From a virus (lineage: Duplodnaviria > Heunggongvirae > Uroviricota > Caudoviricetes), in the IMG/VR virus record IMGVR_UViG_3300003973_000001, positions 1-64,000 of that record: DNA of 64,000 nt; one strand, written 5' to 3'. Every line of letters begins with the position of its first letter. The first letter of the stretch is position 1. The notes below the pieces were generated by a model. It saw only the letters and a list, made by a program, of their open reading frames with translations. It was not told where the DNA came from and did not search any database. Positions 2,851 through 62,178 of the stretch are shown in pieces. The position numbers and the translations under genes are program-made.

Positions 2851-3420
2851 CTGAAGCAGTTTTTAATACGCTATGATGAACTTCCTCCTTCTGTAAACAG
2901 CTACATTAAACCGAGTGCAAAGGTTATGGGTGGCAAGGCGATTGTACATATGTATGAAACGTCTCAAGCAAAGGATTTTAAAAAGAGATTTCAAGCTTAT
3001 TTAAAGCGAGAAGTGGCTAAACAGGGATGGGATAAGTCATCTACTGCAGAAGGACACTTTTACTTGGATTGCGTATTCTACCAGTCCAGAACAAATCAAG
3101 ATAACAATAACTACTACAAAATACTATGTGATGCACTAACTGGAATCGTAATTGAGGATGATAAGAACATTCTAGTCCGTACCCAATGGGTTATGTACGA
3201 TGCTAAGAATCCGCGTTTTATGGCTGTATTACGACCAGTTGAATACAAAGGAATATTTAGAAACCAAGAGTCCTATGGCAGATTCTTTGAGGATAACTGC
3301 TTCAATTGTAAGAAAGATAGCGAGAAATGTGCTATTCTTCGTAAGGCAAAAGAAGGTAGGGTTCAAGAAGATATCGAACAGGATAATAAGGGGTTTGTTT
3401 GCAAAAAGAGGAAGAGATAA
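2851..3420 (+). CDS. rusA: RusA-like Holliday-junction resolvase
   Basis: Motif YYKILCDALTGIVIEDDKNI matches the RusA catalytic region. The track ORF starts at ATG 2926, but the conserved RusA N-terminal motif (ELPPSVNSYIKP) is encoded in-frame upstream without an ATG. Start uncertain: CTG at 2851 or ATG at 2926. Confidence 0.7.
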   Translation: MKQFLIRYDELPPSVNSYIKPSAKVMGGKAIVHMYETSQAKDFKKRFQAYLKREVAKQGWDKSSTAEGHFYLDCVFYQSRTNQDNNNYYKILCDALTGIVIEDDKNILVRTQWVMYDAKNPRFMAVLRPVEYKGIFRNQESYGRFFEDNCFNCKKDSEKCAILRKAKEGRVQEDIEQDNKGFVCKKRKR

Positions 3421-3510: not shown

Positions 3511-4548
3511 TTGGTAACAGAAATTGAGAAGATGCTACTCATCGATAATAGAACCAAGAAGAGAATCGGTAGCAATATCTTCTCTCGTGCATCTACAAGA
3601 AAAGGTGGGACTAACCAAGCGTTAAGAACGCCATATTTATATATGTCTACAAAAGAACGTAAAGCACTAAATGGGGAGGTTAAGAGATACAATATGAATG
3701 ATATTATTTCTTACAAAGACTTTAAAACAAAAGATTTACAAGAGAAAAAGAGGTTGATGAACTACTGGAGAGCTAATTATAAAGTTATTGATATCAAGAA
3801 GCAGATGGGTGGAATCACTGACTACATTTTCTACAAAATATTAGACGAGCTTGATATGGATAGAACTCCTTCTGGAGGCGGAGACCATAGAGAGATATTA
3901 GAGATTTCTCCAGAAGAACTTGAACAATATAAGAAGGAGTTTATAGATTATGAAATGTTCAAGCATCTCTCTAGAGAGACCCAATACGAATTGTTTAGTG
4001 TTTACTACGCGAAGACACCTGTTGTTAGTGAACTTGTTAGACAGTGGGAAGGCGCAGAGGCAGGTTATTTATACAACGTTAAAAGTAAGTGGATGAAATT
4101 TATGAAGGCGCAGAAAGCTGAAAAAGATACCAAAGAAGCTCCTAAATCAGAAGGAACTCCAGTTATCAAGGAAGAGAATCCTGCCAAAGAAGAGATTAAG
4201 GAACTGGGACAATCTATTGTAGAGAAATCTCCAGAAGTCTTTGAGAAGAAACCAGAGCCAGTAGCAGTAGTAGAAGAGCTTTCAGAAGATACAGTAGAGA
4301 TAAACGAACCTATAGGTACGGAAGAATCGTCCGAACCAGTAGTAGAAGTTCCAGAAGAGAAGGTAGTTGAGCAAGAAATCAAAGAAGATAAAGAAGATAA
4401 GTCTTCTTCAAATAAGAACAAGTTATCATTTGAGTTAAAAGGAAATTACAGTACAAGTGCTATTATGAAGTGTCTTCAATTTACTTTGGAAACGCTAGAG
4501 CAAGAAGAATCATTAACAGATATAGAAATCAAGGTTAAGAAGAAATAG
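3511..4548 (+). CDS. hypothetical acidic protein (345 aa)
   Basis: TTG start after AGGAGAGGGTGA RBS. Sigma-A-like promoter upstream (TTGACT at 3437, extended -10 TGTGATACT). E/K/P-rich low-complexity C-terminus. Confidence 0.55.
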   Translation: MVTEIEKMLLIDNRTKKRIGSNIFSRASTRKGGTNQALRTPYLYMSTKERKALNGEVKRYNMNDIISYKDFKTKDLQEKKRLMNYWRANYKVIDIKKQMGGITDYIFYKILDELDMDRTPSGGGDHREILEISPEELEQYKKEFIDYEMFKHLSRETQYELFSVYYAKTPVVSELVRQWEGAEAGYLYNVKSKWMKFMKAQKAEKDTKEAPKSEGTPVIKEENPAKEEIKELGQSIVEKSPEVFEKKPEPVAVVEELSEDTVEINEPIGTEESSEPVVEVPEEKVVEQEIKEDKEDKSSSNKNKLSFELKGNYSTSAIMKCLQFTLETLEQEESLTDIEIKVKKK

Positions 4549-4557
4549 GGGATAGAT

Positions 4558-4986
4558 ATGGTTGAAATACTGAGGATGAATTATGAAGAAAGTGTTAGAG
4601 TACACGAAGAGAATGGAATAATGTTAGAAAAGAAAATGTGCTACAACAATGTATTTAATGTATTATCTTATCATACTGGAAAGTTTCGCAGTGGAGAATG
4701 GCGCGTTGCATACGGATATTGGACTGCAATAGATGGTATTATGGCTAGACATTGTTATATAGTTGATAAGGATAATAATGTAATTGACCCTACAGCACCA
4801 CTTTCTACTGACGAAAATGTCAAAGATAAGAAGTATCTCACATTCAAAATAATTGACGGTCTAGATTCATATCTAGACCTTATAAATGAACATGACAGAG
4901 AACCTGCTCTATATAGAGCTTTCCTAGAAGAAGAAAAGGAAGCTCACGAATATGCTATGAAGAATAACTTAATTCTTATAACATGA
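4558..4986 (+). CDS. hypothetical protein
   Basis: ORF track. Confidence 0.55.
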   Translation: MVEILRMNYEESVRVHEENGIMLEKKMCYNNVFNVLSYHTGKFRSGEWRVAYGYWTAIDGIMARHCYIVDKDNNVIDPTAPLSTDENVKDKKYLTFKIIDGLDSYLDLINEHDREPALYRAFLEEEKEAHEYAMKNNLILIT

Positions 4987-42239: not shown

Positions 42240-43631
42240 TTATTTTGTGAAATATGTTGATAGCGAACCATACGGTTGATTTGCATCTGTATTAGTCGCA
42301 TGAACACGATTTCGAGTCTCTTGCGTATTAGCAGAGAATTTATCTTTCTTAAGAAGCATGAATCCAATTTCTTTCTCGATTTCTACCATAGAGAAAGTAG
42401 CTAGATTTGCTTCAATTGCCTCAAACTCATCCTTAGATAAAGCAGACGCATAACTAGCAAGCTTGTCTTTCTTCTCAGCCAATTCAACATTAGCTTTGAA
42501 GGTACGAAGTTCATTAGCTTCGTCCGTTAAAGTCTGATACTTAGCTTTTAAATCAGCTAATTCAGTCTCTACAGCTTCAAACTTTTTCTTCTCTTCGTCT
42601 TCTTTAGACTTGTCAGCCTTAGACTTTTTCTCGTCCTCATCTTCCTCATCGTCAGAAGCAAACTTTTTCTTTTCGTCCTCATCTTCGTCCTCAGACTCAT
42701 TAGATTTAGAAGCTTTTTTAGCCTCTTTATCTTTCTCGTCTTCGTCATCATCAGCAAACTTTTTCTTAGCCTTCTCTTTTTCTTTTTCTTCTTCCTCTTT
42801 TGCTTTAGCTTTCGCTTCTTCTTCATCGGAATTAGCTTCTGGAGATTTAGCTTTGGCTTTCTCAGCCTCTAATTTTTTCTTTTCTTCCTCATCCTTCGTA
42901 GTGAAGTCTGGGTTAGTATTCAGTTTTGTCAAAGTTACACCACCTTCGGAATTGTTATTTGCAGAGAAGTGACTATTAAACTCTGCAAGAAGTTCTTTCA
43001 TCTCAGATTTAACATTGTTAGCAACTGAGAATCGCTCAACGGTACTTGATACCATTGCAGGAGTAACACCTTCACCCAAAATGCAAGCGCCTTCAAACTT
43101 AGCTTGTGTAAACACAAATAAGCCTTCATCATCAACGTAACCTTTGATGCTTGAAGGAGATAACTCCATTGACTGTGACTTTAAGCCACCGTCTCTATCA
43201 AAAATCTCAGATACCTCTTTGAATTTGTTCCAAAGAACTCCATCAACAACAAGGTATTCTCTTTCAATGCCATCTTCACCATATTTGGTTTCAAATCTAG
43301 CATTGTTTGCCTCTGGAATTACACCGTAGGCATGACCGACATATTTGATGTGAAACTCTCCACCTTCTATTACAAGTCGCTCTTCGTGACCTGCAAAATC
43401 AGTGCCAATCTCCTCTGTTGAAGTTAAATATCCAAGAATAGGAGTATTGGCGAGGGATGGAATCATAGATTCTAAAACCTGCTTTGAGAAGATGGAATTG
43501 TTTCTGTTTTCACCAACATGTGCAATCCAAATTTTCACTGTCATGAATCTGTCATCTAGAACATTTTTCATCTGTTCAAATTTAATTGGTAGACTAGTAT
43601 TAACTAATTTCACCATTTCACCACCCTTCAC
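42240..43631 (-). CDS. prohead protease fused to scaffold-like coiled-coil/KE-rich domain
   Basis: N-terminal about 180 aa resemble HK97-family prohead proteases. The rest is extremely acidic/lysine-rich low complexity plus coiled coil. Confidence 0.6.
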   Translation of the reverse strand: MKGGEMVKLVNTSLPIKFEQMKNVLDDRFMTVKIWIAHVGENRNNSIFSKQVLESMIPSLANTPILGYLTSTEEIGTDFAGHEERLVIEGGEFHIKYVGHAYGVIPEANNARFETKYGEDGIEREYLVVDGVLWNKFKEVSEIFDRDGGLKSQSMELSPSSIKGYVDDEGLFVFTQAKFEGACILGEGVTPAMVSSTVERFSVANNVKSEMKELLAEFNSHFSANNNSEGGVTLTKLNTNPDFTTKDEEEKKKLEAEKAKAKSPEANSDEEEAKAKAKEEEEKEKEKAKKKFADDDEDEKDKEAKKASKSNESEDEDEDEKKKFASDDEEDEDEKKSKADKSKEDEEKKKFEAVETELADLKAKYQTLTDEANELRTFKANVELAEKKDKLASYASALSKDEFEAIEANLATFSMVEIEKEIGFMLLKKDKFSANTQETRNRVHATNTDANQPYGSLSTYFTK

Positions 43632-51525: not shown

Positions 51526-52584
51526 TTATTTATTTTTGATGGCGATTTTATAAAGCTCTTTAACGTAGAATTCTGCTGACTTTTTAGCGATTCGTGTAAT
51601 CGTCTCTGAAACAGTATTCTTCTTGATTCCCAGTAATTCCTCTAGTTCTTCTTGTGCATATCCCTGTCTGAATAAGTCAACAATACTTTGCTCACGAACA
51701 GTCAGAACCATTCTATCTAGCATTCTATTGTAGTCATATATAATGATTCCTAATCCATCTTCATCCATCATATCTTCTCTATTAAGCATTCTGAGAAGCT
51801 CTTTGTTATTTACAATATCAGCGAAATCAATAACATCTAACTTGTTTGCCACACCCTCATCCTTAAGTAGATTCTTAAATTCGATAGGACGCTTGATAGC
51901 TTTCTTGATAGCAATCTGATTATCTTTCGCCTCGCGAATCCAACGAGTTACATAGCCTTTGACGTTTTTGCGAATCTTTAGGAGCTTCGCACGAGCCTCT
52001 TCTTCCATTATAATAGGAAGAGATGCGTCAATTCGATTTTCAATCATCTTCACAAACGAGTCGTCTCCTGCCTTTTCGACTAAGTCTTGCAGTCTGCCAA
52101 TCTCTACTATTTCTCTAATATCCTTAGAAAGTATACTCATACCCTTGACTAGCTTCTGATTTTTATCTTCATTAGAATAGAACATATCGAATACTTCTAC
52201 TTCTGAATTGCCATCTCCACTTTCAAATGCTGAAGCTACAACGTTCTCAGACTCTTTATATTGCTTGAACTCTCTCTCACTCTTCCAAAATCGGTACTCT
52301 ACCTTTCTGTTAGTGTCGATATCTTTTGCATTAAGAAGATATGTACCTAGCATCTCTAACGTTCGGCATACAGCATCCTGCTCAGCCATCCAACCTTGTT
52401 GCGTTGGGCTTACATCGTAATATTCACCAAAGTATGCAGAGAAGAATTCATGTACATTCCCTTCTCCATCACCAATCACTTCATTTATTACCTCTAATCT
52501 ATCATGAAACTTCTCAACTGAATAATCCTGCTGTTGGAAATCCACCAATTTTTTACCTGCAATTGAACTACTGAAGTACTTCAC
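51526..52584 (-). CDS. phage-encoded sigma-70-family sigma factor
   Basis: C-terminal region-4 HTH (QSIVDLFRQGYAQEELEELLGIKKNTVSETITRIAKK). 352 aa. Confidence 0.6.
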   Translation of the reverse strand: MKYFSSSIAGKKLVDFQQQDYSVEKFHDRLEVINEVIGDGEGNVHEFFSAYFGEYYDVSPTQQGWMAEQDAVCRTLEMLGTYLLNAKDIDTNRKVEYRFWKSEREFKQYKESENVVASAFESGDGNSEVEVFDMFYSNEDKNQKLVKGMSILSKDIREIVEIGRLQDLVEKAGDDSFVKMIENRIDASLPIIMEEEARAKLLKIRKNVKGYVTRWIREAKDNQIAIKKAIKRPIEFKNLLKDEGVANKLDVIDFADIVNNKELLRMLNREDMMDEDGLGIIIYDYNRMLDRMVLTVREQSIVDLFRQGYAQEELEELLGIKKNTVSETITRIAKKSAEFYVKELYKIAIKNK

Positions 52585-52926: not shown

Positions 52927-53313
52927 TTATTTCATCTTCGGTTCTTTAAGAATTCCCATCTCTTTAAGCTGTTCAGTAGATTTTAGATATGTCTCTCTAT
53001 CCATTCTAAGCTCTTTATGGAACATTTCTTTACCATACTCATCTCTCTTAACAGATTTATTCGTATTCTTATCTGTAGAACGGTAAGCGAAAATCATTTC
53101 GTACATTCTCTCAGTTGGTGTCTGTATATATTCAATCAACTTTTGTACTAGCACTCCACTTGGCGCACTTCTGTTCCCAATACAGTTCATATAGTAGTTA
53201 TAGTTAACCTCGAAAACGTCAGTAAACTCTCTCTTAGATACGTTTTCTGCAGTACGTTTAATTTCTCCTAATCGAAGAATTTCTCTTCCATCCATTGTTT
53301 CTAGTAAGTTCAT
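52927..53313 (-). CDS. hypothetical protein
   Basis: ORF. Confidence 0.5.
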   Translation of the reverse strand: MNLLETMDGREILRLGEIKRTAENVSKREFTDVFEVNYNYYMNCIGNRSAPSGVLVQKLIEYIQTPTERMYEMIFAYRSTDKNTNKSVKRDEYGKEMFHKELRMDRETYLKSTEQLKEMGILKEPKMK

Positions 53314-53372: not shown

Positions 53373-53822
53373 TTAACAACTGCTTTTTTGGATTACTTTT
53401 CTTAATTCCTCAATTTCTTTCTCGCGGTTCTTTATTTCCTTCTCAGCTTTAACCTTAATTCCTTTTAATATAATGAATCTAAGATTCTCCATTATATATA
53501 GAAACTTCTCGTCATCAAGGAAACTAGCATATATCTCATTAGCAATGATATGACTAACCTTATGAAGAATGAAATCATCTTTACTATTATGGTAAGGAAG
53601 CTCCTCATAATCTTCTCTAGACATTGGATATACGGAATCTACAAATTCATAAAATCCGTCTTCCATATCGTATACGCCTGCAAGGTCGATAATTTCAAAT
53701 ACACGTTTAACTCGTGTATCTTTTAGGTCTCGATATTCGTCCATGAAAGTTGTCCATAGTTCTAATATCTCACCTTTCTTCTGTTTATATTGCTTTGTCG
53801 TTCCATTTTTAATTACTGCCAA
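53373..53822 (-). CDS. hypothetical protein
   Basis: ORF. Confidence 0.5.
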   Translation of the reverse strand: MAVIKNGTTKQYKQKKGEILELWTTFMDEYRDLKDTRVKRVFEIIDLAGVYDMEDGFYEFVDSVYPMSREDYEELPYHNSKDDFILHKVSHIIANEIYASFLDDEKFLYIMENLRFIILKGIKVKAEKEIKNREKEIEELRKVIQKSSC

Positions 53823-54593
53823 CTATTCCACCTCATTAATAGGATTGTTATTTCTATCTAATACTTGGATATAATGAGTCTCATTACTATAGCCCAGTTT
53901 ATCCATAGCATCTTGAATATAGATAAAAATTGATTTTGCACTATCCCCTACTCTCCAGTAGAAGTTGTGCGTCTTAGAAATGCTCTTGCCTTTAATTTGC
54001 TTCTTGGCTGTAAATCTCATCTTTCTAAAGTCAATGACACTGAGTTCATCTTTTAATATGTAGATGTACTTTGATACGGTTTTGTCACTAATGCCTGTTT
54101 CAAACTGAATTGTTCCTTGAGAAATCCAAGACACCTTGCAACTTGATTCGCTCTCGAATATAGGAGATACGATACTAGCATATACAGAGAATACTCCAAA
54201 CTTCTTCTTCTTATCCAACGTCATGAACTTCTTGATAATATCCACATCAAACATTGTGAAGTATCCACCCTTGTTAGGCTCTACCATTTTAATAAAGTAT
54301 AGTGTAGAAGGTCTCATCTTAGATGCCTCTATCCTGCACATTTCCGCTTGGTCTTCGTATACTTCAATAAATTGATGAACTTCTAGATTAGTAACGAATC
54401 CTTTCATCTTAGATTTATTTCTACTGTCCGAATGATTCATTCCCATCTGTTTGAGAAGATTTGTAATACTAACCGTTGCAGAGCCAGTTGGATTATTGGC
54501 TCGAATGACAGCGTATGTAAATTTCTCTTCTGATGTAATTACTTCGTGTTTAATTAGGGAGTCGCTAATTTTAATAAAGTTATTATTTTTCAA
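53823..54593 (-). CDS. hypothetical protein adjacent to the iteron region (possible DNA-binding/replication function)
   Basis: ORF. Motif copy 14 nt upstream. Confidence 0.5.
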   Translation of the reverse strand: MKNNNFIKISDSLIKHEVITSEEKFTYAVIRANNPTGSATVSITNLLKQMGMNHSDSRNKSKMKGFVTNLEVHQFIEVYEDQAEMCRIEASKMRPSTLYFIKMVEPNKGGYFTMFDVDIIKKFMTLDKKKKFGVFSVYASIVSPIFESESSCKVSWISQGTIQFETGISDKTVSKYIYILKDELSVIDFRKMRFTAKKQIKGKSISKTHNFYWRVGDSAKSIFIYIQDAMDKLGYSNETHYIQVLDRNNNPINEVE

Positions 54594-54613
54594 ATTCTAT
54601 CATATTCTCCTTC

Positions 54614-54632
54614 CTGCAATACTTTTATTTAA
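54614..54632 (-). promoter_or_regulatory. 19-bp motif class A variant
   Basis: ctgcaatacttttatttaa, 20 nt before the start of 53823..54593. Confidence 0.55.
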
Positions 54633-54649
54633 TGAAGTGTGTGAAAGTC

Positions 54650-54740
54650 GAAAGCGCCACTGCGCGCGACCACCCACTTATCTCTCTCTTCTTAATATGG
54701 TTCTTTTCTGCTTAAATGGTTCTCTTTTATTAGACCCCCA
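54650..54740. repeat. GC-rich segment (GCGCCACTGCGCGCGACCACCCAC...TTAGACCCCCA) duplicated at 54948-55016
   Basis: About 80-bp imperfect direct repeat preceding each iteron array. GC-rich, unlike the flanking AT-rich DNA. Confidence 0.5.
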
Positions 54741-54862
54741 GATTTACACCAATAGGGGGTGTGTATTTCCGTATACCTGTCGGAGATTTACACCCCCTAT
54801 TGGTGTAAAAATCCGTATACCCTCGGAGATATACACTAGCAGGGGGTGTAAATCTCCGTATA
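54741..54862. repeat. iteron array 1: at least 3 copies of a ~22-bp unit TATACGGAGATTTACACCCCCT (some as inverted pairs)
   Basis: Direct and inverted copies of GGTGTAAATCTCCGTAT / TACACCCCCTATTGGTGTA. Confidence 0.6.
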
Positions 54863-54903
54863 CTTTAACTCATGGATAAATTTTAACAGAGAATAAGAAA
54901 TAC

Positions 54904-54922
54904 TGCAATACTTTTGTTTAAA
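54904..54922 (-). promoter_or_regulatory. 19-bp motif class A heading the first iteron unit
   Basis: ctgcaatacttttgtttaa. Confidence 0.55.
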
Positions 54923-55016
54923 GGAATACGTTTCAGTAGTGGGAAAAGAGCGCCACCGCGCGACCCCACTACTATCTCTCTCTGCTTCGTCTGGTTCTCT
55001 TATTATTAGACCCCCA

Positions 55017-55094
55017 CATTTACACCCCCTAGTGGTGTAAATCTCCGTATGGTATGCGGAAATACGCACCCCTAGAGGGTGTAAATCTCCGTAT
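55017..55094. repeat. iteron array 2: 2-3 copies of the same unit
   Basis: atttacaccccctagtggtgtaaatctccgtat ... agagggtgtaaatctccgtat. Confidence 0.6.
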
Positions 55095-55132
55095 CAGTGA
55101 GATGTATAGAAATTTGGGTGAGTGATTTTTGC

Positions 55133-55165
55133 TATATAATAGAAGAAACTCGATTTGAATCGAAT
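55133..55165 (+). promoter_or_regulatory. TGCTATATAATAGAAGAAACTCGATTTGAATCGA element (copy 3), upstream of the winged-helix gene
   Basis: Extended -10-like TGCTATATAAT plus a hairpin TCGATT-TG-AATCGA. Confidence 0.45.
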
Positions 55166-55410
55166 GAACCAGAAATTTATTGTCAGATTGAAGGGGATTC
55201 TGCTACAATGAATACAACAAACAAATCTTGAAAAAGCAAAAACGCCCTATCCTTTGTAAGTTTGGCGACCTGCAAGGATAAAGCGTTCGAAAGATAAAAC
55301 ATAGAATTCAGTTTTTTGTTACCTCAATAATATCATACATATAATATGTATGCAAAGGAATTCTATGATTTTTTCTTCCTGCTTTTTCTATAAAAATGGG
55401 GGAATTGAAT

Positions 55411-56445
55411 ATGGCTAGACCAGATGGTTATGATGTAGAAGGTTACATCCACTTTATTAAGAAGAGAGTAGATGGGACTCATTGGGTTGGCAAAGGAGAG
55501 AGTGCTAGAGAGATGCCTAATAAAGAAGCGTATGAAGTGCCTTTTGAATCTATCGAAAACTTAGACCTTAATAGGATTGGTAATGAGATTTCTTATCTTA
55601 ATAGCAATGTCTGGAATGTAGAAAGATATATGGCTTATTTCTGGAAGCAAATAATGGATGCTGATTCTATTTTCGTTTGGAAGCATCTGTGGGAATATGC
55701 AAATGAAGCAGAGAATATTGATATGTGTTATCCGAAAATGTCTGAATTGATGCAGAGATGCGGATTATCGAGACCCACCCTAATTGACAAGATAAAGAAA
55801 CTGGAAGAGAACAACTTCCTTATTCAAATACATAGATTAAACAAGAAGTCCGATAATAAAAAAGAAGACAGCCCATTATTCAAATTAAGAAGAACTATAC
55901 CTCTGCTGTCGAAAGAACAGGTTGAAAAGCTTACTCCTTTTATGAAGAAAAAGCATGACGATTACATGAATAAGTTTGCTAGTAAATCTAGTCTAGAATG
56001 GTTCTCTGCGAGCGGTAAAGAAACTGTTGATAATCTTATAGAGACTTCTGGAGACAGAATCGTATCTAGCAAGGCAAGACAGGAAATCAAGAATCTGCTA
56101 AAGAACGAGGAAGAAGAAGGTTATATAATTGTGAACCTCCCTCCTCATATGCAGGACACATTAAAAGATTCTAATTCACTACATGAGGCTCTTATGAAGA
56201 ACGGATTTAGTAAACCGTCAGTAGAATTGCTATTTGGAGACGTAATGTCTACATATGATAGTGAGACATCTACTGCACATATTATTACCAGAAAAAGTTC
56301 TCAGAAAGAGTATTATGAGAAAAATATGGAAGATAAGTATAAAGACATGCTATTCTCATCACTAATTGAAATGTACGATTCTGTTGGAGATATAAAGTAC
56401 TTCACTACAGAACAATATATAATTACAATTCTGAAGGGCAAATAA
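55411..56445 (+). CDS. winged-helix DNA-binding protein flanked by repeat arrays (replication initiator / origin-binding candidate)
   Basis: HTH-like segment PKMSELMQRCGLSRPTLIDKIKKLEENNFL. Iterons upstream, DnaA-box/palindrome array downstream. Start moved to ATG 55411 (GGGGGA RBS). Confidence 0.55.
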   Translation: MARPDGYDVEGYIHFIKKRVDGTHWVGKGESAREMPNKEAYEVPFESIENLDLNRIGNEISYLNSNVWNVERYMAYFWKQIMDADSIFVWKHLWEYANEAENIDMCYPKMSELMQRCGLSRPTLIDKIKKLEENNFLIQIHRLNKKSDNKKEDSPLFKLRRTIPLLSKEQVEKLTPFMKKKHDDYMNKFASKSSLEWFSASGKETVDNLIETSGDRIVSSKARQEIKNLLKNEEEEGYIIVNLPPHMQDTLKDSNSLHEALMKNGFSKPSVELLFGDVMSTYDSETSTAHIITRKSSQKEYYEKNMEDKYKDMLFSSLIEMYDSVGDIKYFTTEQYIITILKGK

Positions 56446-56493: not shown

Positions 56494-56720
56494 TTATCCG
56501 CCTAGTGTAAAGAAATTTTATACTATGATTTTCGCCTAGTATAAAGAAATTTTATACTATACCATAAAGAAATTTTATACTATAGTGTAAAGAAATTTTA
56601 CACTATAGAAACACTCACTTATCCCCAGATTCTGTGGATAACCTAGTATAAAGTTTTTTTATACTATAAAACCCTAGTGTAAAATTTCTTTATAGTCCCC
56701 CTAAAGAATCTTTACACCCT
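56494..56720. repeat. array of at least 6 palindromic 24-bp repeats (TAGTRTAAAGAAATTTTATACTAT) flanked by three DnaA-box-like 9-mers
   Basis: TTATCCGCC at 56494, TTATCCCCA at 56619, perfect TTATCCACA (complement) at 56634-56642. Each repeat is itself an inverted repeat TAGTATAAA/TTTATACTA. Confidence 0.6.
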
Positions 56721-56979
56721 ATATCTTTATGATTCTATATATCTTTTTATTATTAATTAATATAAGATTCCATAAGAATCATTAGTGTAGAATTTTCAGA
56801 AAATACAAGTCTCCAGAAATACGAATCTCGAATCGGTAGACATATAGACCCTCCAGAATACTCCTCTCACCTCCATACTGACTCACTGACACGTTCTACG
56901 AACGAAGTAATCCAAATATATCTGTAAAAATAGCCCCTCCCCTACGGAGCGCTACCTATCTTAAAATTTATTATTTTTA

Positions 56980-60520: not shown

Positions 60521-60711
60521 AAATAGTCTTCTTTTTTATTTTGTACCACTTTTAGACCAATAATTGGTACATAGGGTGGTCAATCTATTATTTTTTCTAT
60601 ATTTTTTTCATCTATCAAACTCTTCAGTACCAAGGCTTGGCACTGAGGGTGGTCTAATTTCTGTCTTTCGGGTATTGCAAAGTAGAGAAATGCGTGATTT
60701 AATATAGACAA
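60521..60711. repeat. repeat sites upstream of the ParM-like gene: two palindromes each followed by AGGGTGGTC(A/T)AAT
   Basis: GACCAATAATTGGTACATAGGGTGGTCAATC and ACCAAGGCTTGGCACTGAGGGTGGTCTAATTTC. Confidence 0.45.
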
Positions 60712-60738
60712 ATGGTAAATGAAGGAGAGATTGGCAAA

Positions 60739-61878
60739 ATGGTCAAGAAAACTGCGTTAAAAGTTACTATGAAATACGATAGAGTTATTGGAATCGACTT
60801 AGGTAACGGTCTTGTAAAGATTAGAAGTGTTTACAAAAGCGGTGAATTATATGAACTGACTCTTCCAAGCGCATTCGGAAAACTGATTGATGTAGGGAAC
60901 AGTGTTGGGGGAGAAGAGCTAGATTTAGATACATATAGAATTAATGGCATCGATTATGTATGGGGAGAAGATATCACTAGACTTCGAGACAAGATGAAGC
61001 CTTGCTACGGTCATCAAGGAAGATATGAATCTGAAGCATATAAGATTATGGCTCAAATCGCTATGTCTAGAGTTGTAAAGGATTTAGGAATCGATGCAAC
61101 GGAAAAGGTTTTAGTAGTAACTGGAGTTCCTTCTATTGAAACTGATACAGAGTGCGAGACTGATATAGCGAATGCTTTCTATGGAGAAAGCTCTGGATTC
61201 TTCGAAACAGTAGTAAATGGACAAGAGTACAGCTACAGATTAGCTCACGTACAGGTTACAGCACAGGCTCTGGCAACTGTAATTGGAAGATATATAGATG
61301 AGGTTGGAAGAGTATTAAATTCGGATTATGAGAAGATTAAGGTAGCTGTAGTTGATATCGGTGCAGGCACAACGGATTTAGATGCTGTATTTGAGCTTCG
61401 TAGACAATCGAACTACCATAGTATCCAACGAGGATTCAGAGATGTTTATGAGGATATCAGAACGTATATTAGAAAGTATCATCCTTCTCATGTTGTTACG
61501 GACTACGATATCTTAGAAATCATCGAAGAAGTAGGGGATATGAGGAAGAGGCAGGAACTTGAAGCTTCTATTAGCAAGAAGAAGAAAGAGGATATTCGAT
61601 ATGAATACACTCCTTCAAAGAGAAGCGCACCAGTAGATTTCACTGATGTATTCCTTAATTCATTATATGAGCTTGCAATGGATATTCAGCAGGCTATACT
61701 TGATAAGTGGAAGAATACACTTGAATTTGATGAAATATTAATCGTTGGAGGAAGCGCAGAACACTTCTCTGACATGATGTTAAAGATTGTTAAGGATGCA
61801 ATTATCCCAGAGAACAATGGAGATAGTAACGTAGAGGGTTATTACAGATTGGGCGTAAGTATCGCACTGGCAGGATAA
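60739..61878 (+). CDS. ParM/StbA-like actin-fold partition ATPase
   Basis: N-terminal phosphate-1 motif VIGIDLGNGLVKI. DIGAGTTD phosphate-2 motif. GAAGGAGAG RBS then ATG 60739. Confidence 0.7.
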   Translation: MVKKTALKVTMKYDRVIGIDLGNGLVKIRSVYKSGELYELTLPSAFGKLIDVGNSVGGEELDLDTYRINGIDYVWGEDITRLRDKMKPCYGHQGRYESEAYKIMAQIAMSRVVKDLGIDATEKVLVVTGVPSIETDTECETDIANAFYGESSGFFETVVNGQEYSYRLAHVQVTAQALATVIGRYIDEVGRVLNSDYEKIKVAVVDIGAGTTDLDAVFELRRQSNYHSIQRGFRDVYEDIRTYIRKYHPSHVVTDYDILEIIEEVGDMRKRQELEASISKKKKEDIRYEYTPSKRSAPVDFTDVFLNSLYELAMDIQQAILDKWKNTLEFDEILIVGGSAEHFSDMMLKIVKDAIIPENNGDSNVEGYYRLGVSIALAG

Positions 61879-61890
61879 GGAGTGTAAAGA

Positions 61891-62178
61891 ATGTCTATAT
61901 ATAAGCTACCATTAGATGATGATGTTGATGTGGATATACAGAAGTGGATGGACAAGATACCTAGAAACAAGAAGGCTGAAGTTATACGACACGCTATAAG
62001 GCTGTATAAGAGCCAACTGAAAGAAGGGGAATTCTTCTATTATCCTACTGGAGAAGGCGTGTATAAGGTCAATAATACGCAAGAGGAAGTTATTGAAGAG
62101 GAAGAGATAGAAGAAGAGAGACCGATGGCTAATCCTGCATTCTTAGCTAGTATGCACAAGGCGAAGGGTGATAAATAA
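61891..62178 (+). CDS. ParR-like ribbon-helix-helix adaptor (putative)
   Basis: 95 aa. KKAEVIRHAIRLY RHH-like N-terminus, acidic C-terminus. Immediately downstream of the ParM-like gene. Confidence 0.45.
   Translation: MSIYKLPLDDDVDVDIQKWMDKIPRNKKAEVIRHAIRLYKSQLKEGEFFYYPTGEGVYKVNNTQEEVIEEEEIEEERPMANPAFLASMHKAKGDK

What the first reader, a model, noticed from the sequence alone, without database searches (positions are those of the whole stretch)
54626..55130. Duplicated GC-rich segment plus iteron arrays: candidate replication origin or multi-operator
Two about 280-bp units are each headed by a class-A 19-bp element. Each contains an unusually GC-rich stretch (GCGCCACTGCGCGCGACC..., duplicated at 54650 and 54948). 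Each is followed by 2-3 copies of a ~22-bp unit TATACGGAGATTTACACCCCCT, present both as direct repeats and as inverted pairs (TACACCCCCTATTGGTGTA). That is 5-6 iterons in total. The region lies between divergent transcription units, 53823..54593 (-) and the winged-helix gene 55411..56445 (+). Iteron clusters next to an initiator gene are the hallmark of theta/plasmid-type origins. Alternatively they are cooperative operator sites for the neighbouring DNA-binding protein.
Basis: seen in the sequence. Interest (0 to 1): 0.8.

Follow-up and report, generated by a model that had tools for sequence, protein, structure and literature searches.

The report
Duplicated origin-like Rep-binding cassette
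The repeats are real: they are five palindromic protein-binding sites, an AT-rich tract and a GC-rich hairpin. This cassette travels with a plasmid-initiator-like gene on its left in a family of large Bacillus phage/plasmid elements. It most likely serves as a second replication origin and self-control site, while the textbook iteron origin lies 1.5 kb to the right.

Summary
Positions 54614-55100 hold two tandem ~289-bp units. Each has a 19-mer motif, a GC-rich hairpin, a pyrimidine-rich tract (+ strand) and 3 or 2 palindromes of 36-41 bp spaced 43-44 bp apart (10 half-sites, GTATACGGAGATTTACACC).

The sites do not belong to the right-hand initiator (55411-56445). Its own iterons, the window's only perfect DnaA box and an AT-rich stretch lie downstream of it (56499-56775). 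That layout is conserved and covaries with the initiator in relatives.

The palindromes go with the left neighbour (53823-54593). Its AlphaFold model (pLDDT 92) has two winged-helix domains, and its best full-length structural matches are the plasmid initiators RepE and Pi.

About ten diverged relatives, including circular Bacillus 'plasmids', keep the same order: sigma-A-type promoter, 1-4 palindromes, AT/purine-rich tract, GC hairpin, gene. In one B. velezensis element the three-palindrome cassette sits downstream of the gene and only one palindrome stays at the promoter.

Best reading (about 0.5): a transcribed, DnaA-box-less, origin-type cassette for the RepE-like protein that also autoregulates. 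Main rival (about 0.3): a purely transcriptional operator or roadblock. No binding or replication was tested. I rate it a new variant of a known kind, of moderate interest.

The parts
53823..54593 (-). Gene for a 256-aa protein with two winged-helix domains (RepE/Pi-initiator-like fold). It is the proposed binder of the palindromes and the first gene of the leftward operon.
54614..54632 (-). It is followed directly by the ribosome-binding site GGAAGGAG, with no -10 element at the right spacing.
   Evidence: A motif in the same position occurs in relatives L185, L187, L188, L140, L189 and L191.
54635..54679 (.). GC-rich hairpin 1 (58% GC against about 37% locally).
   Evidence: dG -17 kcal/mol, z -2.6. 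In the close relative the outer stem is changed with compensation: AAGTGTGTG/CACCCACTT becomes AAGTGCA/TGCACTT. Eleven of 13 homologous positions in relatives hold a different hairpin-forming GC island.
54680..54739 (-). AT-rich, purine-skewed tract 1. The minus strand reads GGGGGTCTAATAAAAGAGAACCATTTAAGCAGAAAAGAACCATATTAAGAAGAGAGAGAT. It is the candidate unwinding or R-loop element.
   Evidence: 71% AT and 76% purine, about the 99th percentile of strand bias in the window. By my reading of the alignment it is roughly 85% identical to relatives whose palindromes differ. The ends of the tract, TTGG(GGGTC/TACTG)TAA..AAGAGAGA and AGAGAGAT, are conserved down to 26-30% protein identity.
54736..54863 (.). 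Palindromes P1 (54736-54776), P2 (54780-54820) and P3 (54823-54863). They give six half-sites of consensus GTATACGGAGATTTACACC, with a period of 43-44 bp.
   Evidence: Arm mismatches are not compensated, which fits a protein site better than an RNA stem.
54880..54921 (-). Leftward sigma-A-type promoter: motif copy 1 (54921-54903) ending in the -35 element TTGCAG, a 17-nt spacer ending in TG, and the -10 element TAAAAT (54885-54880). The predicted transcription start is about 54873, so P3 begins at about +10.
   Evidence: Read from the sequence. TTGnnn-17-TAnnnT is kept in 9 relatives. The generic scan did not list it because the -35 element matches only 3 of 6 positions.
54935..54973 (.). GC-rich hairpin 2 (AGTAGTGGGG...CCCACTACT).
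   Evidence: dG -21.6 kcal/mol, z -4.3. It is identical in the close relative.
54974..55017 (-). Purine-skewed tract 2. It is a shorter copy with a single AGAACCA element.
   Evidence: (family D3).
55012..55096 (.). Palindromes P4 (55012-55052) and P5 (55056-55096). They belong to the extra partial cassette and lie upstream of the leftward promoter. No convincing promoter of their own was found.
   Evidence: Only the window and UViG_2529292751 carry this second unit.
56499..56775 (.). Not part of the cassette. This is the separate canonical iteron origin of the right-hand initiator: 6-7 repeats of TAGTGTAAAGAAATTTTATACTA, DnaA boxes at 56619-56641, and an AT-rich stretch at 56720-56775.
   Evidence: The same architecture with different iterons occurs in PJN02 and in UViG_2529292751.

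Best explanation
The region is a tandemly duplicated cis-acting cassette that belongs to the left-hand gene 53823-54593. That gene encodes a protein with the two-winged-helix fold of the iteron-plasmid initiators RepE and Pi.

Read on the minus strand, one cassette is an array of dyad-symmetric binding sites (three in unit 1), then a roughly 60-bp AT-rich, purine-skewed tract, then a GC-rich hairpin island.

The proposed mechanism has four steps. Step 1 is read from sequence and conserved in relatives; steps 2 to 4 are inferred.

1. A strong sigma-A-type promoter (54921-54880) fires leftward through the cassette into the Rep-like gene.
2. Dimers, or head-to-head monomer pairs, of the Rep-like protein occupy the palindromes. 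These are phased about four helical turns apart and start about 10 nt after the transcription start.
3. This occupancy throttles the protein's own expression and that of the downstream sigma-like and HU genes.
4. It also builds a nucleoprotein complex that opens the adjacent AT-rich tract, possibly helped by the purine-rich transcript. That would give a second, DnaA-box-independent replication origin beside the plasmid-type iteron/DnaA origin at 56499-56775.

Unit 2 (P4, P5, tract 2, hairpin 2) is a recent partial duplicate that adds two more sites between the divergent promoters.
For: - Synteny: the palindromes lie next to the Rep-like gene in all ten diverged relatives inspected where sequence upstream of the gene is available. 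These include two Bacillus plasmid records annotated as circular and an integrase-bearing element.
- Fixed order and orientation: sites, then an AT/purine tract (64-78% AT, 71-85% purine), then a GC island, across proteins only 26-60% identical.
- Autonomy: in B. velezensis NZ_CP069392 one palindrome stays at the promoter. The three-palindrome/AT-tract/GC-island cassette sits immediately downstream of the gene, still in the transcribed orientation. The palindrome occurs nowhere else in 148 kb.
- Locality: the exact 14-mer half-site occurs only at this locus in the 126-kb relative and in the window.
- Specificity: the palindromes never follow the right-hand initiator, and within close groups they follow the Rep-like protein.
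- Promoter: TTGnnn-17-TAnnnT is conserved, and the first site lies at about +10 to +18.
- Precedents: lambda iterons are 19-bp imperfect inverted repeats bound by O dimers next to an AT-rich tract (PMC7466680). Inc18 origins need transcription through an initiator-bound site with an adjacent AT-rich melt (PMC4981023).
Against: - No binding, unwinding or replication was tested. Everything functional is inferred.
- The sites are palindromes, not the direct iterons typical of RepE/Pi origins. In that family, inverted repeats are the autorepression operators.
- There is no DnaA box within one mismatch in 54594-55400.
- No helicase-loader gene was recognised beside the Rep-like gene.
- The AT tract is only moderately AT-rich (71% against about 63% for the genome).
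- A full plasmid-type origin already exists 1.5 kb away.
- The B. wiedmannii and B. velezensis proteins are only 37% identical yet share the same palindrome core. Covariation with the protein is therefore imperfect, and another binder is not excluded.
- Structural similarity to RepE/Pi is modest (TM 0.35-0.43). No Pfam Rep_3 hit was found.
- Unit 2 has no evident promoter.
Confidence: 0.5

Rival explanations
1. The region is a purely transcriptional switch. The palindromes are operators downstream of the leftward early promoter. The Rep-like protein, or another phage regulator, binds them cooperatively and blocks or attenuates transcription into the operon that leads to the sigma-like factor, HU, the tRNAs and the late genes. 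The AT/purine tract and the hairpin would be leader or attenuator elements, and no replication would start here.
For: - The first site begins about 10-18 nt after the predicted start of a conserved promoter.
- B. velezensis and B. wiedmannii keep a single promoter-proximal palindrome, which is classic autoregulation.
- In the RepE/Pi family, dimers on inverted repeats repress the rep promoter. This point is from established knowledge of those plasmids.
- The region is the divergent control point between the replication/partition arm and the sigma-factor/late arm.
- In some relatives the hairpin is followed by a U-rich tail on the gene strand (L187, L192, B. velezensis).
Against: - A simple operator does not explain the conserved sequence and orientation of the AT/purine tract, which is better conserved than the palindromes.
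- It does not explain the GC island.
- It does not explain the relocation of the whole three-site cassette downstream of the gene in B. velezensis.
- In the window the hairpins lack a U-tract.
- The protein family's detectable relatives are replication initiators, not transcription factors.
Confidence: 0.3
2. The function is at the RNA level. Each unit encodes a structured noncoding RNA or leader of about 230 nt, running from promoter to hairpin. The palindromes would act as RNA hairpins, and the purine tract would act as an antisense or protein-binding segment, for example in copy-number or immunity control.
For: - A conserved promoter reads through the unit. A hairpin with compensatory changes closes it, and it is followed by a second promoter-like motif, a terminator-promoter layout seen at other motif copies.
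- The folds score well below shuffles (z -5.2 and -4.7).
- The purine block is conserved at the sequence level.
Against: - Palindrome arms carry uncompensated C.C or G.G mismatches in several relatives, and P1 has three mismatches.
- No Rfam family matches. Only chance-level miRNA hits appear.
- The hairpin energies give no strand preference.
- In B. velezensis the cassette has no promoter of its own.
- The one 14-nt complementarity to the initiator mRNA (54684-54697 against 55455-55468) is not conserved in the close relative.
Confidence: 0.1
3. The repeats would be iterons or operators of the right-hand winged-helix initiator 55411-56445, and together with that gene they would form its origin.
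For: - The sites are adjacent to and divergent from that gene.
- Its product matches PHROG replication-initiation families.
- The heptamer GTGTAAA is shared between the palindrome half-site and some of the initiator's iterons.
Against: - The initiator has its own conserved iteron/DnaA-box array downstream.
- PJN02 and FADO have the initiator and its iterons but no palindrome cassette.
- The window and UViG_2529292751 share the palindromes at about 95% identity while their initiators are 60% identical with different iterons.
- Initiators that are 79% identical go with different palindromes, and initiators that are 41% identical go with the same palindromes.
Confidence: 0.04
4. The palindrome arrays are a partition centromere for plasmid-prophage segregation.
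For: - Phased arrays of palindromes with a period of about 43 bp resemble some plasmid centromeres such as sopC of F. This resemblance is from memory.
- The element encodes an actin-like segregation protein (60712-61878).
- Relatives are recorded as plasmids.
Against: - The actin-like gene has its own upstream inverted repeats and a small downstream gene 5.6 kb away.
- The neighbouring protein has an initiator fold, not a known centromere-binding fold.
- The conserved AT tract and GC island are not explained by a centromere.
Confidence: 0.04

Closest known systems
Iteron-plasmid replicons with two-winged-helix initiators (RepE of F, Pi of R6K, and the Rep_3 type)
   Same: - The neighbouring protein's best full-length structural matches are RepE54-iteron and Pi-iteron complexes.
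- Half-sites of about 19-22 bp are repeated many times next to the gene.
- The order sites, AT-rich tract, GC-rich segment matches RK2, pPS10 and similar origins. This comparison is from memory.
- Inverted repeats at the promoter of the rep gene are used for autorepression in that family.
   Different: - All sites here are dyad-symmetric pairs phased at 41-45 bp, not head-to-tail iterons.
- There is no DnaA box.
- There is no Pfam Rep_3 signature.
- The cassette lies in the transcribed leader, or in one relative in the 3' flank, of the gene.
- The host element is a large tailed-phage/plasmid genome that already has a separate iteron/DnaA origin.
Phage lambda origin with O protein (the O-some)
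   Same: - Tandem imperfect inverted-repeat sites are bound by an initiator dimer, immediately beside an AT-rich tract where unwinding starts (PMC7466680).
- Origin use depends on nearby transcription (PMC3017604, title and abstract).
- Members of the protein family hit PHROG 'replication initiation O-like' families.
   Different: - Lambda's sites are 19 bp long, closely packed and inside gene O. Here they are 36-41 bp long, about 43 bp apart and outside the gene.
- No P-type helicase loader is encoded next to the gene.
Inc18 theta plasmids (pAMbeta1 and pIP501: oriR with RepE/RepR)
   Same: - They occur in Firmicutes.
- The initiator site includes an inverted repeat with an AT-rich segment just downstream that melts.
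- The origin must be transcribed from the rep promoter, and the rep transcript is thought to supply the primer (PMC4981023).
- In B. velezensis the cassette likewise lies directly downstream of the rep-like gene.
   Different: - The Inc18 initiator is a large, unrelated 57-kDa protein with a single binding site.
- Here there are 3-5 phased palindromes and a small two-winged-helix protein.
- A primer role for the purine-rich transcript is speculation.
Dual replicons of phage-plasmids such as P1 (plasmid oriR/RepA with iterons and DnaA boxes, plus lytic oriL/RepL under an operator-controlled promoter)
   Same: - There are two initiator-type genes.
- One has a canonical iteron and DnaA-box origin.
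- The other sits behind a promoter that carries operator-like sites.
- Relatives are maintained as plasmids.

The comparison with P1 is from memory.
   Different: - There is no sequence relationship to P1 RepL or C1.
- Which origin serves which life-cycle phase is unknown.
- Here the two replicons are back to back.

Membership tests
Iteron-type theta origin with a RepE/Pi (Rep_3-like) initiator | An adjacent gene encodes an initiator with two winged-helix domains. | tested here: met
Iteron-type theta origin with a RepE/Pi (Rep_3-like) initiator | Sequence membership of the initiator in Pfam Rep_3 or a related curated family. | tested here: not met
   The window protein has no Pfam hit. Homologues hit only HTH_36, DnaD_N and, in 2 of 33 members, RepL.
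Iteron-type theta origin with a RepE/Pi (Rep_3-like) initiator | Several directly repeated iterons of 17-22 bp. | tested here: not met
   The 19-22 bp half-sites occur as five inverted pairs. Direct periodicity exists only at the level of whole palindromes, at 43-44 bp.
Iteron-type theta origin with a RepE/Pi (Rep_3-like) initiator | An AT-rich unwinding element beside the repeats. | tested here: inconclusive
   A tract of about 60 bp with 64-78% AT and strong purine skew always follows the array. It is only moderately less stable than the surrounding DNA, and unwinding was not tested.
Iteron-type theta origin with a RepE/Pi (Rep_3-like) initiator | One or more DnaA boxes in the origin. | tested here: not met
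   There is no TTATCCACA within one mismatch in 54594-55400. The only perfect box in the window is at 56633-56641, in the other origin.
Iteron-type theta origin with a RepE/Pi (Rep_3-like) initiator | Supports autonomous replication that depends on the cognate initiator. | not testable with these tools
   This needs cloning into an origin-less vector, or marker-frequency or 2D-gel analysis.
Lambda-type origin (O-some) | A tandem array of dyad-symmetric initiator sites next to an AT-rich tract. | tested here: met
   Five palindromes are followed by AT-rich tracts. The lambda layout is described in PMC7466680.
Lambda-type origin (O-some) | The origin lies inside the initiator gene, which is followed by a helicase-loader gene. 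| tested here: not met
   The cassette lies outside the coding sequence. The downstream ORFs 53373-53822 and 52927-53313 have no Pfam or PHROG hit.
Autoregulatory operator array | The regulator's binding sites overlap or directly follow the promoter of its own gene. | tested here: met
   The conserved promoter TTGnnn-17-TAnnnT is followed by the first palindrome at about +10 to +18 in 9 relatives. Binding by the protein itself was not tested.
Transcription-primed origins (Inc18, ColE1 and T4 oriF type) | A promoter must read through the origin, and the transcript forms the primer or an R-loop. | tested here: inconclusive
   The promoter and the orientation of the cassette relative to transcription are conserved, including where the cassette is downstream of the gene. 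The transcript over the tract is 71-85% purine. R-loop or primer formation cannot be tested here.
Known RNA families (Rfam 15) | A match at or above the family's gathering score. | tested here: not met
   At gathering threshold only tRNAs match. At E up to 10 the region gives only sub-threshold miRNA-type hairpin hits.

The most novel reading that the evidence does not exclude
The cassette is a transcription-primed, initiator-gated lytic origin. The strong early promoter makes a purine-rich RNA that forms a persistent R-loop on the pyrimidine-rich template just past the Rep-bound palindromes. The GC hairpin would mark the RNA-to-DNA transition. The RepE-like protein would decide whether the transcript is used as mRNA leader or as primer. 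This would let one element switch between DnaA/iteron plasmid-mode replication (56.5 kb) and phage-mode replication (54.7 kb) from two back-to-back origins.
Probability: 0.2. Interest if true: 0.7.

Novelty: new variant of a known kind. Interest (0 to 1): 0.5.

Why it matters
Large temperate Bacillus phages that live as plasmids are common but almost unstudied at the level of replication control. The papers found describe only 'a replication initiator' and give no origins (PMC9703825 and PMC8026635).

This locus defines two things:
- The canonical iteron/DnaA origin of these elements.
- A second, conserved cis-cassette coupled to an uncharacterised RepE/Pi-fold protein family. That family has only 53 cluster representatives among 1.8 billion proteins.

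If the cassette is an origin, these elements carry two adjacent replicons that could separate plasmid maintenance from lytic amplification. If it is only an operator, it is the master switch in front of the phage sigma-factor operon.

Either way it gives precise, testable sites for binding, incompatibility and vector construction in the B. cereus and B. subtilis groups.

Tried and rejected
- **Rfam and tRNA scans of the region.** Nothing beyond chance-level hairpin hits.
- **DNA searches for relatives.** INPHARED gave no relative except a 47-nt leader hairpin. tblastn of the 256-aa protein and of a family member against phages found nothing. A strict palindrome pattern in IMG/VR found nothing because no palindrome is perfect. 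The 14-mer half-site gave only single chance hits apart from the one close relative.
- **Type III toxin-antitoxin (ToxI-like) repeat array.** Considered because the layout is promoter, repeats, hairpin, gene. Rejected because the repeats are imperfect palindromes (66-78% identical) and the downstream protein has a winged-helix initiator fold.
- **Sigma-54 promoter in TGGTTC-N5-TGC.** Rejected because the GG-to-GC spacing is one base short.
- **Class-A element as a plus-strand promoter (TG-n-AATACT).** Rejected because relatives conserve TTAAACAAAA and TTG on the other strand, not AATACT.
- **Hairpin as an intrinsic terminator.** U-tails occur only in some relatives. Fold energies on the two strands are similar, so no strand call was possible.
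- **Trans pairing of the CU-rich strand with the initiator mRNA.** The 14-nt match is not conserved in the close relative.
- **First structure model.** The 7-sequence alignment gave a poor model (pLDDT 64) and only non-significant matches. It was superseded by the 33-sequence model.
- **Profile search against PDB sequences.** Only generic winged-helix regulators were found.
- **Lactococcal phage c2 origin.** I recalled it as an early promoter plus an essential noncoding transcript. I could not verify this in the library, so it is not used as evidence.
Full report
**Setting**

The window is part of a large low-GC (about 37%) tailed-phage genome of the Bacillus type.
- It carries 13 tRNA genes at 48.7-50.7 kb, a large terminase and a portal, and an HU-like and a sigma-like gene.
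- It also carries a UvrD helicase, an Ant/Bro protein and an actin-like segregation protein.
- No close DNA relative exists among 50,697 phage records.
- One IMG/VR contig of 126 kb, UViG_2529292751, is a close relative.
- Proteins 92-97% identical to the left-hand neighbour occur on roughly 128-kb Bacillus cereus contigs.
- More distant relatives are deposited as circular plasmids of B. wiedmannii and B. velezensis.
- The more distant PJN02/FADO group is described in the literature as temperate 'Tyroviruses' with a suspected plasmid stage (PMC9703825).

The element is therefore probably a plasmid-prophage or a large temperate phage of the B. cereus group.

**Check of the observation**

The two units are real.
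- The 19-mer recurs at 54614 and 54903, 289 bp apart. The GC-rich segment recurs at 54651 and 54945. The stretch 54727-54818 recurs at 55003.
- The GC-rich 21-mer is unique to these two places in 64 kb.
- The '22-bp unit' is the half-site of five palindromes of 36-41 bp: P1 54736, P2 54780, P3 54823, P4 55012 and P5 55056. Their spacing is 43-44 bp.
- The 13-mer core occurs 8 times at up to 2 mismatches against 1.4 expected. Seven of these lie within 360 bp.
- The ten half-sites give the consensus GTATACGGAGATTTACACC(CCC).

**The 'class-A' element**

It occurs 15 times in the window against 0.16 expected.
- Every copy is antisense to the adjacent gene. On the gene's strand it reads TTAAACAAAAGTATTGCAG.
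- In at least 9 of 15 copies it is followed, 17 nt after TTGCAx, by TGnTATaAT. It is thus the upstream and -35 part of sigma-A-type promoters.
- The copy at 54921-54903 has TTGCAG, a 17-nt spacer and TAAAAT preceded by TG. This predicts a leftward start near 54873, about 10 nt before P3.
- The copy at 54632-54614 has no -10 element and abuts the ribosome-binding site of gene 53823-54593.
- The generic promoter scan did not list the 54921 promoter because its -35 matches only 3 of 6 positions. My assignment rests on conservation: TTGnnn-17-TAnnnT is kept at the homologous place in nine relatives.

**The right-hand initiator has its own origin elsewhere**

- Gene 55411-56445 matches PHROG replication-initiation families and HTH_36.
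- Directly after its terminator lie 6-7 repeats of TAGTGTAAAGAAATTTTATACTA, with spacings of 34, 23, 23, 61 and 31 bp. Next come the only perfect DnaA box of the window (56633-56641), a one-mismatch box in inverted orientation (56619-56627), and an AT-rich stretch.
- In phage PJN02 the initiator is 45% identical. The same layout recurs with spacings of 34, 23, 23, 50 and 32 bp, a DnaA box in the same gap and a different iteron sequence.
- In the close relative the initiator is 60% identical. The iterons again differ, and two DnaA boxes are present.
- Iterons that change together with their initiator, inside a fixed architecture, identify 56499-56775 as that protein's origin.
- PJN02 has no palindrome cassette upstream.

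**The palindromes do not follow that initiator**

- The window and the close relative share the whole 54560-55420 region at 94% identity, although their initiators are 60% identical with different iterons.
- Across relatives, initiators 79% identical go with different palindromes (UViG and L187). Initiators 41% identical go with the same palindromes (L185 and L187).

**What does go with the palindromes**

The left-hand gene (256 aa) has no family hit of its own.
- Its homologues carry HTH_36.
- A profile search of 1.8 billion representative proteins finds only 53 relatives.
- Of 33 members scanned, 23 hit HTH_36, 7 hit DnaD_N and 2 hit RepL. In PHROGs they hit mainly 'replication initiation protein', 'O-like' and 'DnaD-like loader' families.
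- With this deeper alignment AlphaFold2 gives a confident model, pLDDT 91.9 and pTM 0.89, with two winged-helix domains.
- Foldseek against the PDB ranks eight RepE54-iteron complexes first, with E 3.5e-4 to 3.5e-3 and probability 0.93-1.0.
- TM-scores are modest (0.35-0.43), so this is fold-level resemblance. It is not family membership.

**A conserved cassette**

I collected the homologous intergenic region from relatives whose Rep-like proteins are 26-96% identical to the window's. The loci are L003/L184, L185, L187, L188, L140, L189, L191, L192, L195 and L196.

Read on the gene's strand, they share one order:
1. A promoter.
2. One to four palindromes with a period of 40-45 bp.
3. A tract of about 60 bp that is 64-78% AT and 71-85% purine.
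4. A GC-rich island that can form a hairpin.
5. Usually a second copy of the motif.
6. The ribosome-binding site and the gene.

Further points on the cassette:
- Palindrome sequences differ between groups: GGAGATTTACACC, AAACTGTCAC, AAAAAGTGTC and GAGACGATAATCGTCTC.
- The AT/purine tract is better conserved than the palindromes. By my reading of the alignment it is roughly 85% identical between the window and L185/L187/L188. Its ends, TTGG(GGGTC/TACTG)TAA-AAGAGAGA and AGAGAGAT, are recognisable in the most distant members.
- The GC island has a different sequence in nearly every relative. In the close relative the outer stem of hairpin 1 changed with compensation, including a 6-nt deletion.
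- Its folding energy does not favour either strand.
- Palindrome arms show uncompensated mismatches. P1 has three, and several relatives have C.C or G.G at the same half-site position. This fits protein half-sites better than RNA stems.

**The cassette is an autonomous unit**

- In B. velezensis NZ_CP069392 only one palindrome follows the promoter, and the gene comes next.
- Eight nucleotides after its stop codon lie three palindromes with a period of 40-41 bp. They are followed by TTGGTACTCTAAGAAGAGG and a 78% AT tract, then a GC island with a T-run.
- The palindrome occurs nowhere else in the 148-kb record.
- B. wiedmannii has the intermediate form: promoter, one palindrome, motif, three palindromes, tract, hairpin, gene.
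- So there are two components. One is a promoter-proximal operator. The other is a three-site/AT-tract/GC-island cassette that keeps its orientation relative to transcription but can lie before or after the gene.
- In the window the two are merged. A partial second cassette (P4, P5, tract 2, hairpin 2) has also been added upstream of the promoter. Only the window and its close relative have this duplication.

**Interpretation**

- An initiator-fold protein is coupled to a local array of its probable sites, followed by an AT-rich strand-asymmetric tract and a GC-rich segment. This is the anatomy of an origin.
- The sites are dyad-symmetric, as in phage lambda, whose 19-bp iterons are imperfect inverted repeats bound by O dimers beside an AT-rich tract (PMC7466680).
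- Obligatory transcription through the element has a Firmicute precedent in the Inc18 plasmids. There the initiator binds next to an AT-rich melt and the rep transcript is thought to prime synthesis (PMC4981023).
- The position of the first site just after the transcription start, and the lone promoter-proximal site in two relatives, argue for autoregulation. RepE and Pi dimers do this on inverted repeats; that point is from established knowledge of those plasmids.
- I therefore favour a bifunctional reading at confidence 0.5: a second, DnaA-box-less origin-type cassette that also serves as the Rep-like protein's own operator.
- A purely transcriptional switch in front of the sigma-factor operon is the main rival (0.3).
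- RNA-level function (0.1), the initiator-iteron reading (0.04) and a centromere (0.04) are less likely. The reasons are given under the rival explanations.

**Caveats**

- Nothing functional was tested.
- Assigning the binder rests on synteny, locality and fold. Covariation is imperfect: the B. wiedmannii and B. velezensis proteins are 37% identical yet share one palindrome core, although their helix-turn-helix segment is nearly the same.
- The cumulative GC-skew minimum lies at 54-56 kb. It coincides with the switch in gene orientation and cannot separate the two candidate origins.

**Verdict**

- Novelty: a new variant of a known kind.
- Interest: moderate (0.5).

Noticed in passing
window 56499-56775: This is the canonical iteron origin of the 55411-56445 initiator. 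It has 6-7 repeats of 23 bp (TAGTGTAAAGAAATTTTATACTA), the only perfect DnaA box in the window (56633-56641) paired with a one-mismatch inverted box (56619-56627), and then an AT-rich stretch. The same spacing with different iterons occurs in PJN02 and in UViG_2529292751.
   Followed up: yes
window 55243-55290 (+): A hairpin of about 48 nt lies in the initiator's 5' leader (AACGCCCTATCCTTTGTAAGTTTGGCGACCTGCAAGGATAAAGCGTT). It is 96% identical to PJN02, FADO, 2S-4 and PK-3, although the initiators are only 45% identical. In 8 relatives, 7 of 19 pairs show compensatory changes, and the apical GTTTGGCGAC is invariant. There is a sub-threshold CopA-like Rfam hit on the opposite strand. It is a candidate copy-control target.
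   Followed up: partly
window, 15 sites (for example 850, 10311, 25585, 36074, 40575, 52872, 56980, 57815, 59848): The motif TTAAACAAAAGTATTGCAG always lies on the strand of the adjacent gene. Most copies are followed by a 17-nt spacer and an extended -10 element. At least five copies (1546, 25585, 40575, 54614, 59848) lack a -10 and abut a ribosome-binding site. This suggests a second role, for example recognition by the phage sigma-like protein 51526-52584. The motif is also multi-copy in several IMG/VR contigs of about 130 kb.
   Followed up: partly
window 60540-62178: An actin-like (ALP_N / Alp7A_C) segregation gene lies at 60712-61878, followed by a 95-aa gene at 61891-62178. Upstream at 60540-60660 are inverted repeats (GTACCA...TGGTAC, and GTGGTC twice) that could be its centromere.
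   Followed up: no
window 54684-54697 and 55455-55468: There is a perfect 14-nt inverted match (CTCTCTTCTTAATA / TATTAAGAAGAGAG) between the pyrimidine tract of unit 1 and codons 15-19 of the initiator gene. It is not conserved in the close relative (3 mismatches), so it is probably chance.
   Followed up: partly
L197/L199 (B. velezensis plasmid NZ_CP069392.1, 330-13433 and 130239-143341): The 'circular plasmid' record lists the same run of about 20 proteins at both ends. This looks like a terminal repeat of about 13-18 kb from a linear phage genome that was joined by the assembler.
   Followed up: no
window 42540-42930: This is the strongest purine/pyrimidine strand bias in the window, up to 93% over 55 nt. 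It lies inside ORF 42240-43631 (PHROG 3313, unknown function).
   Followed up: no
L191 3170-4201: In one relative the right-hand initiator carries a precomputed Pfam DnaA_N hit in addition to HTH_36. This hints at a helicase-recruiting domain in this initiator family.
   Followed up: no
L185 about 3050-3075; L187 about 3015-3035; L195 about 4530-4600: In several relatives, perfect DnaA boxes (TTATCCACA / TGTGGATAA, often as an inverted pair) lie in the intergenic region between the initiator's promoter and the Rep-like cassette. The window has none there.
   Followed up: partly
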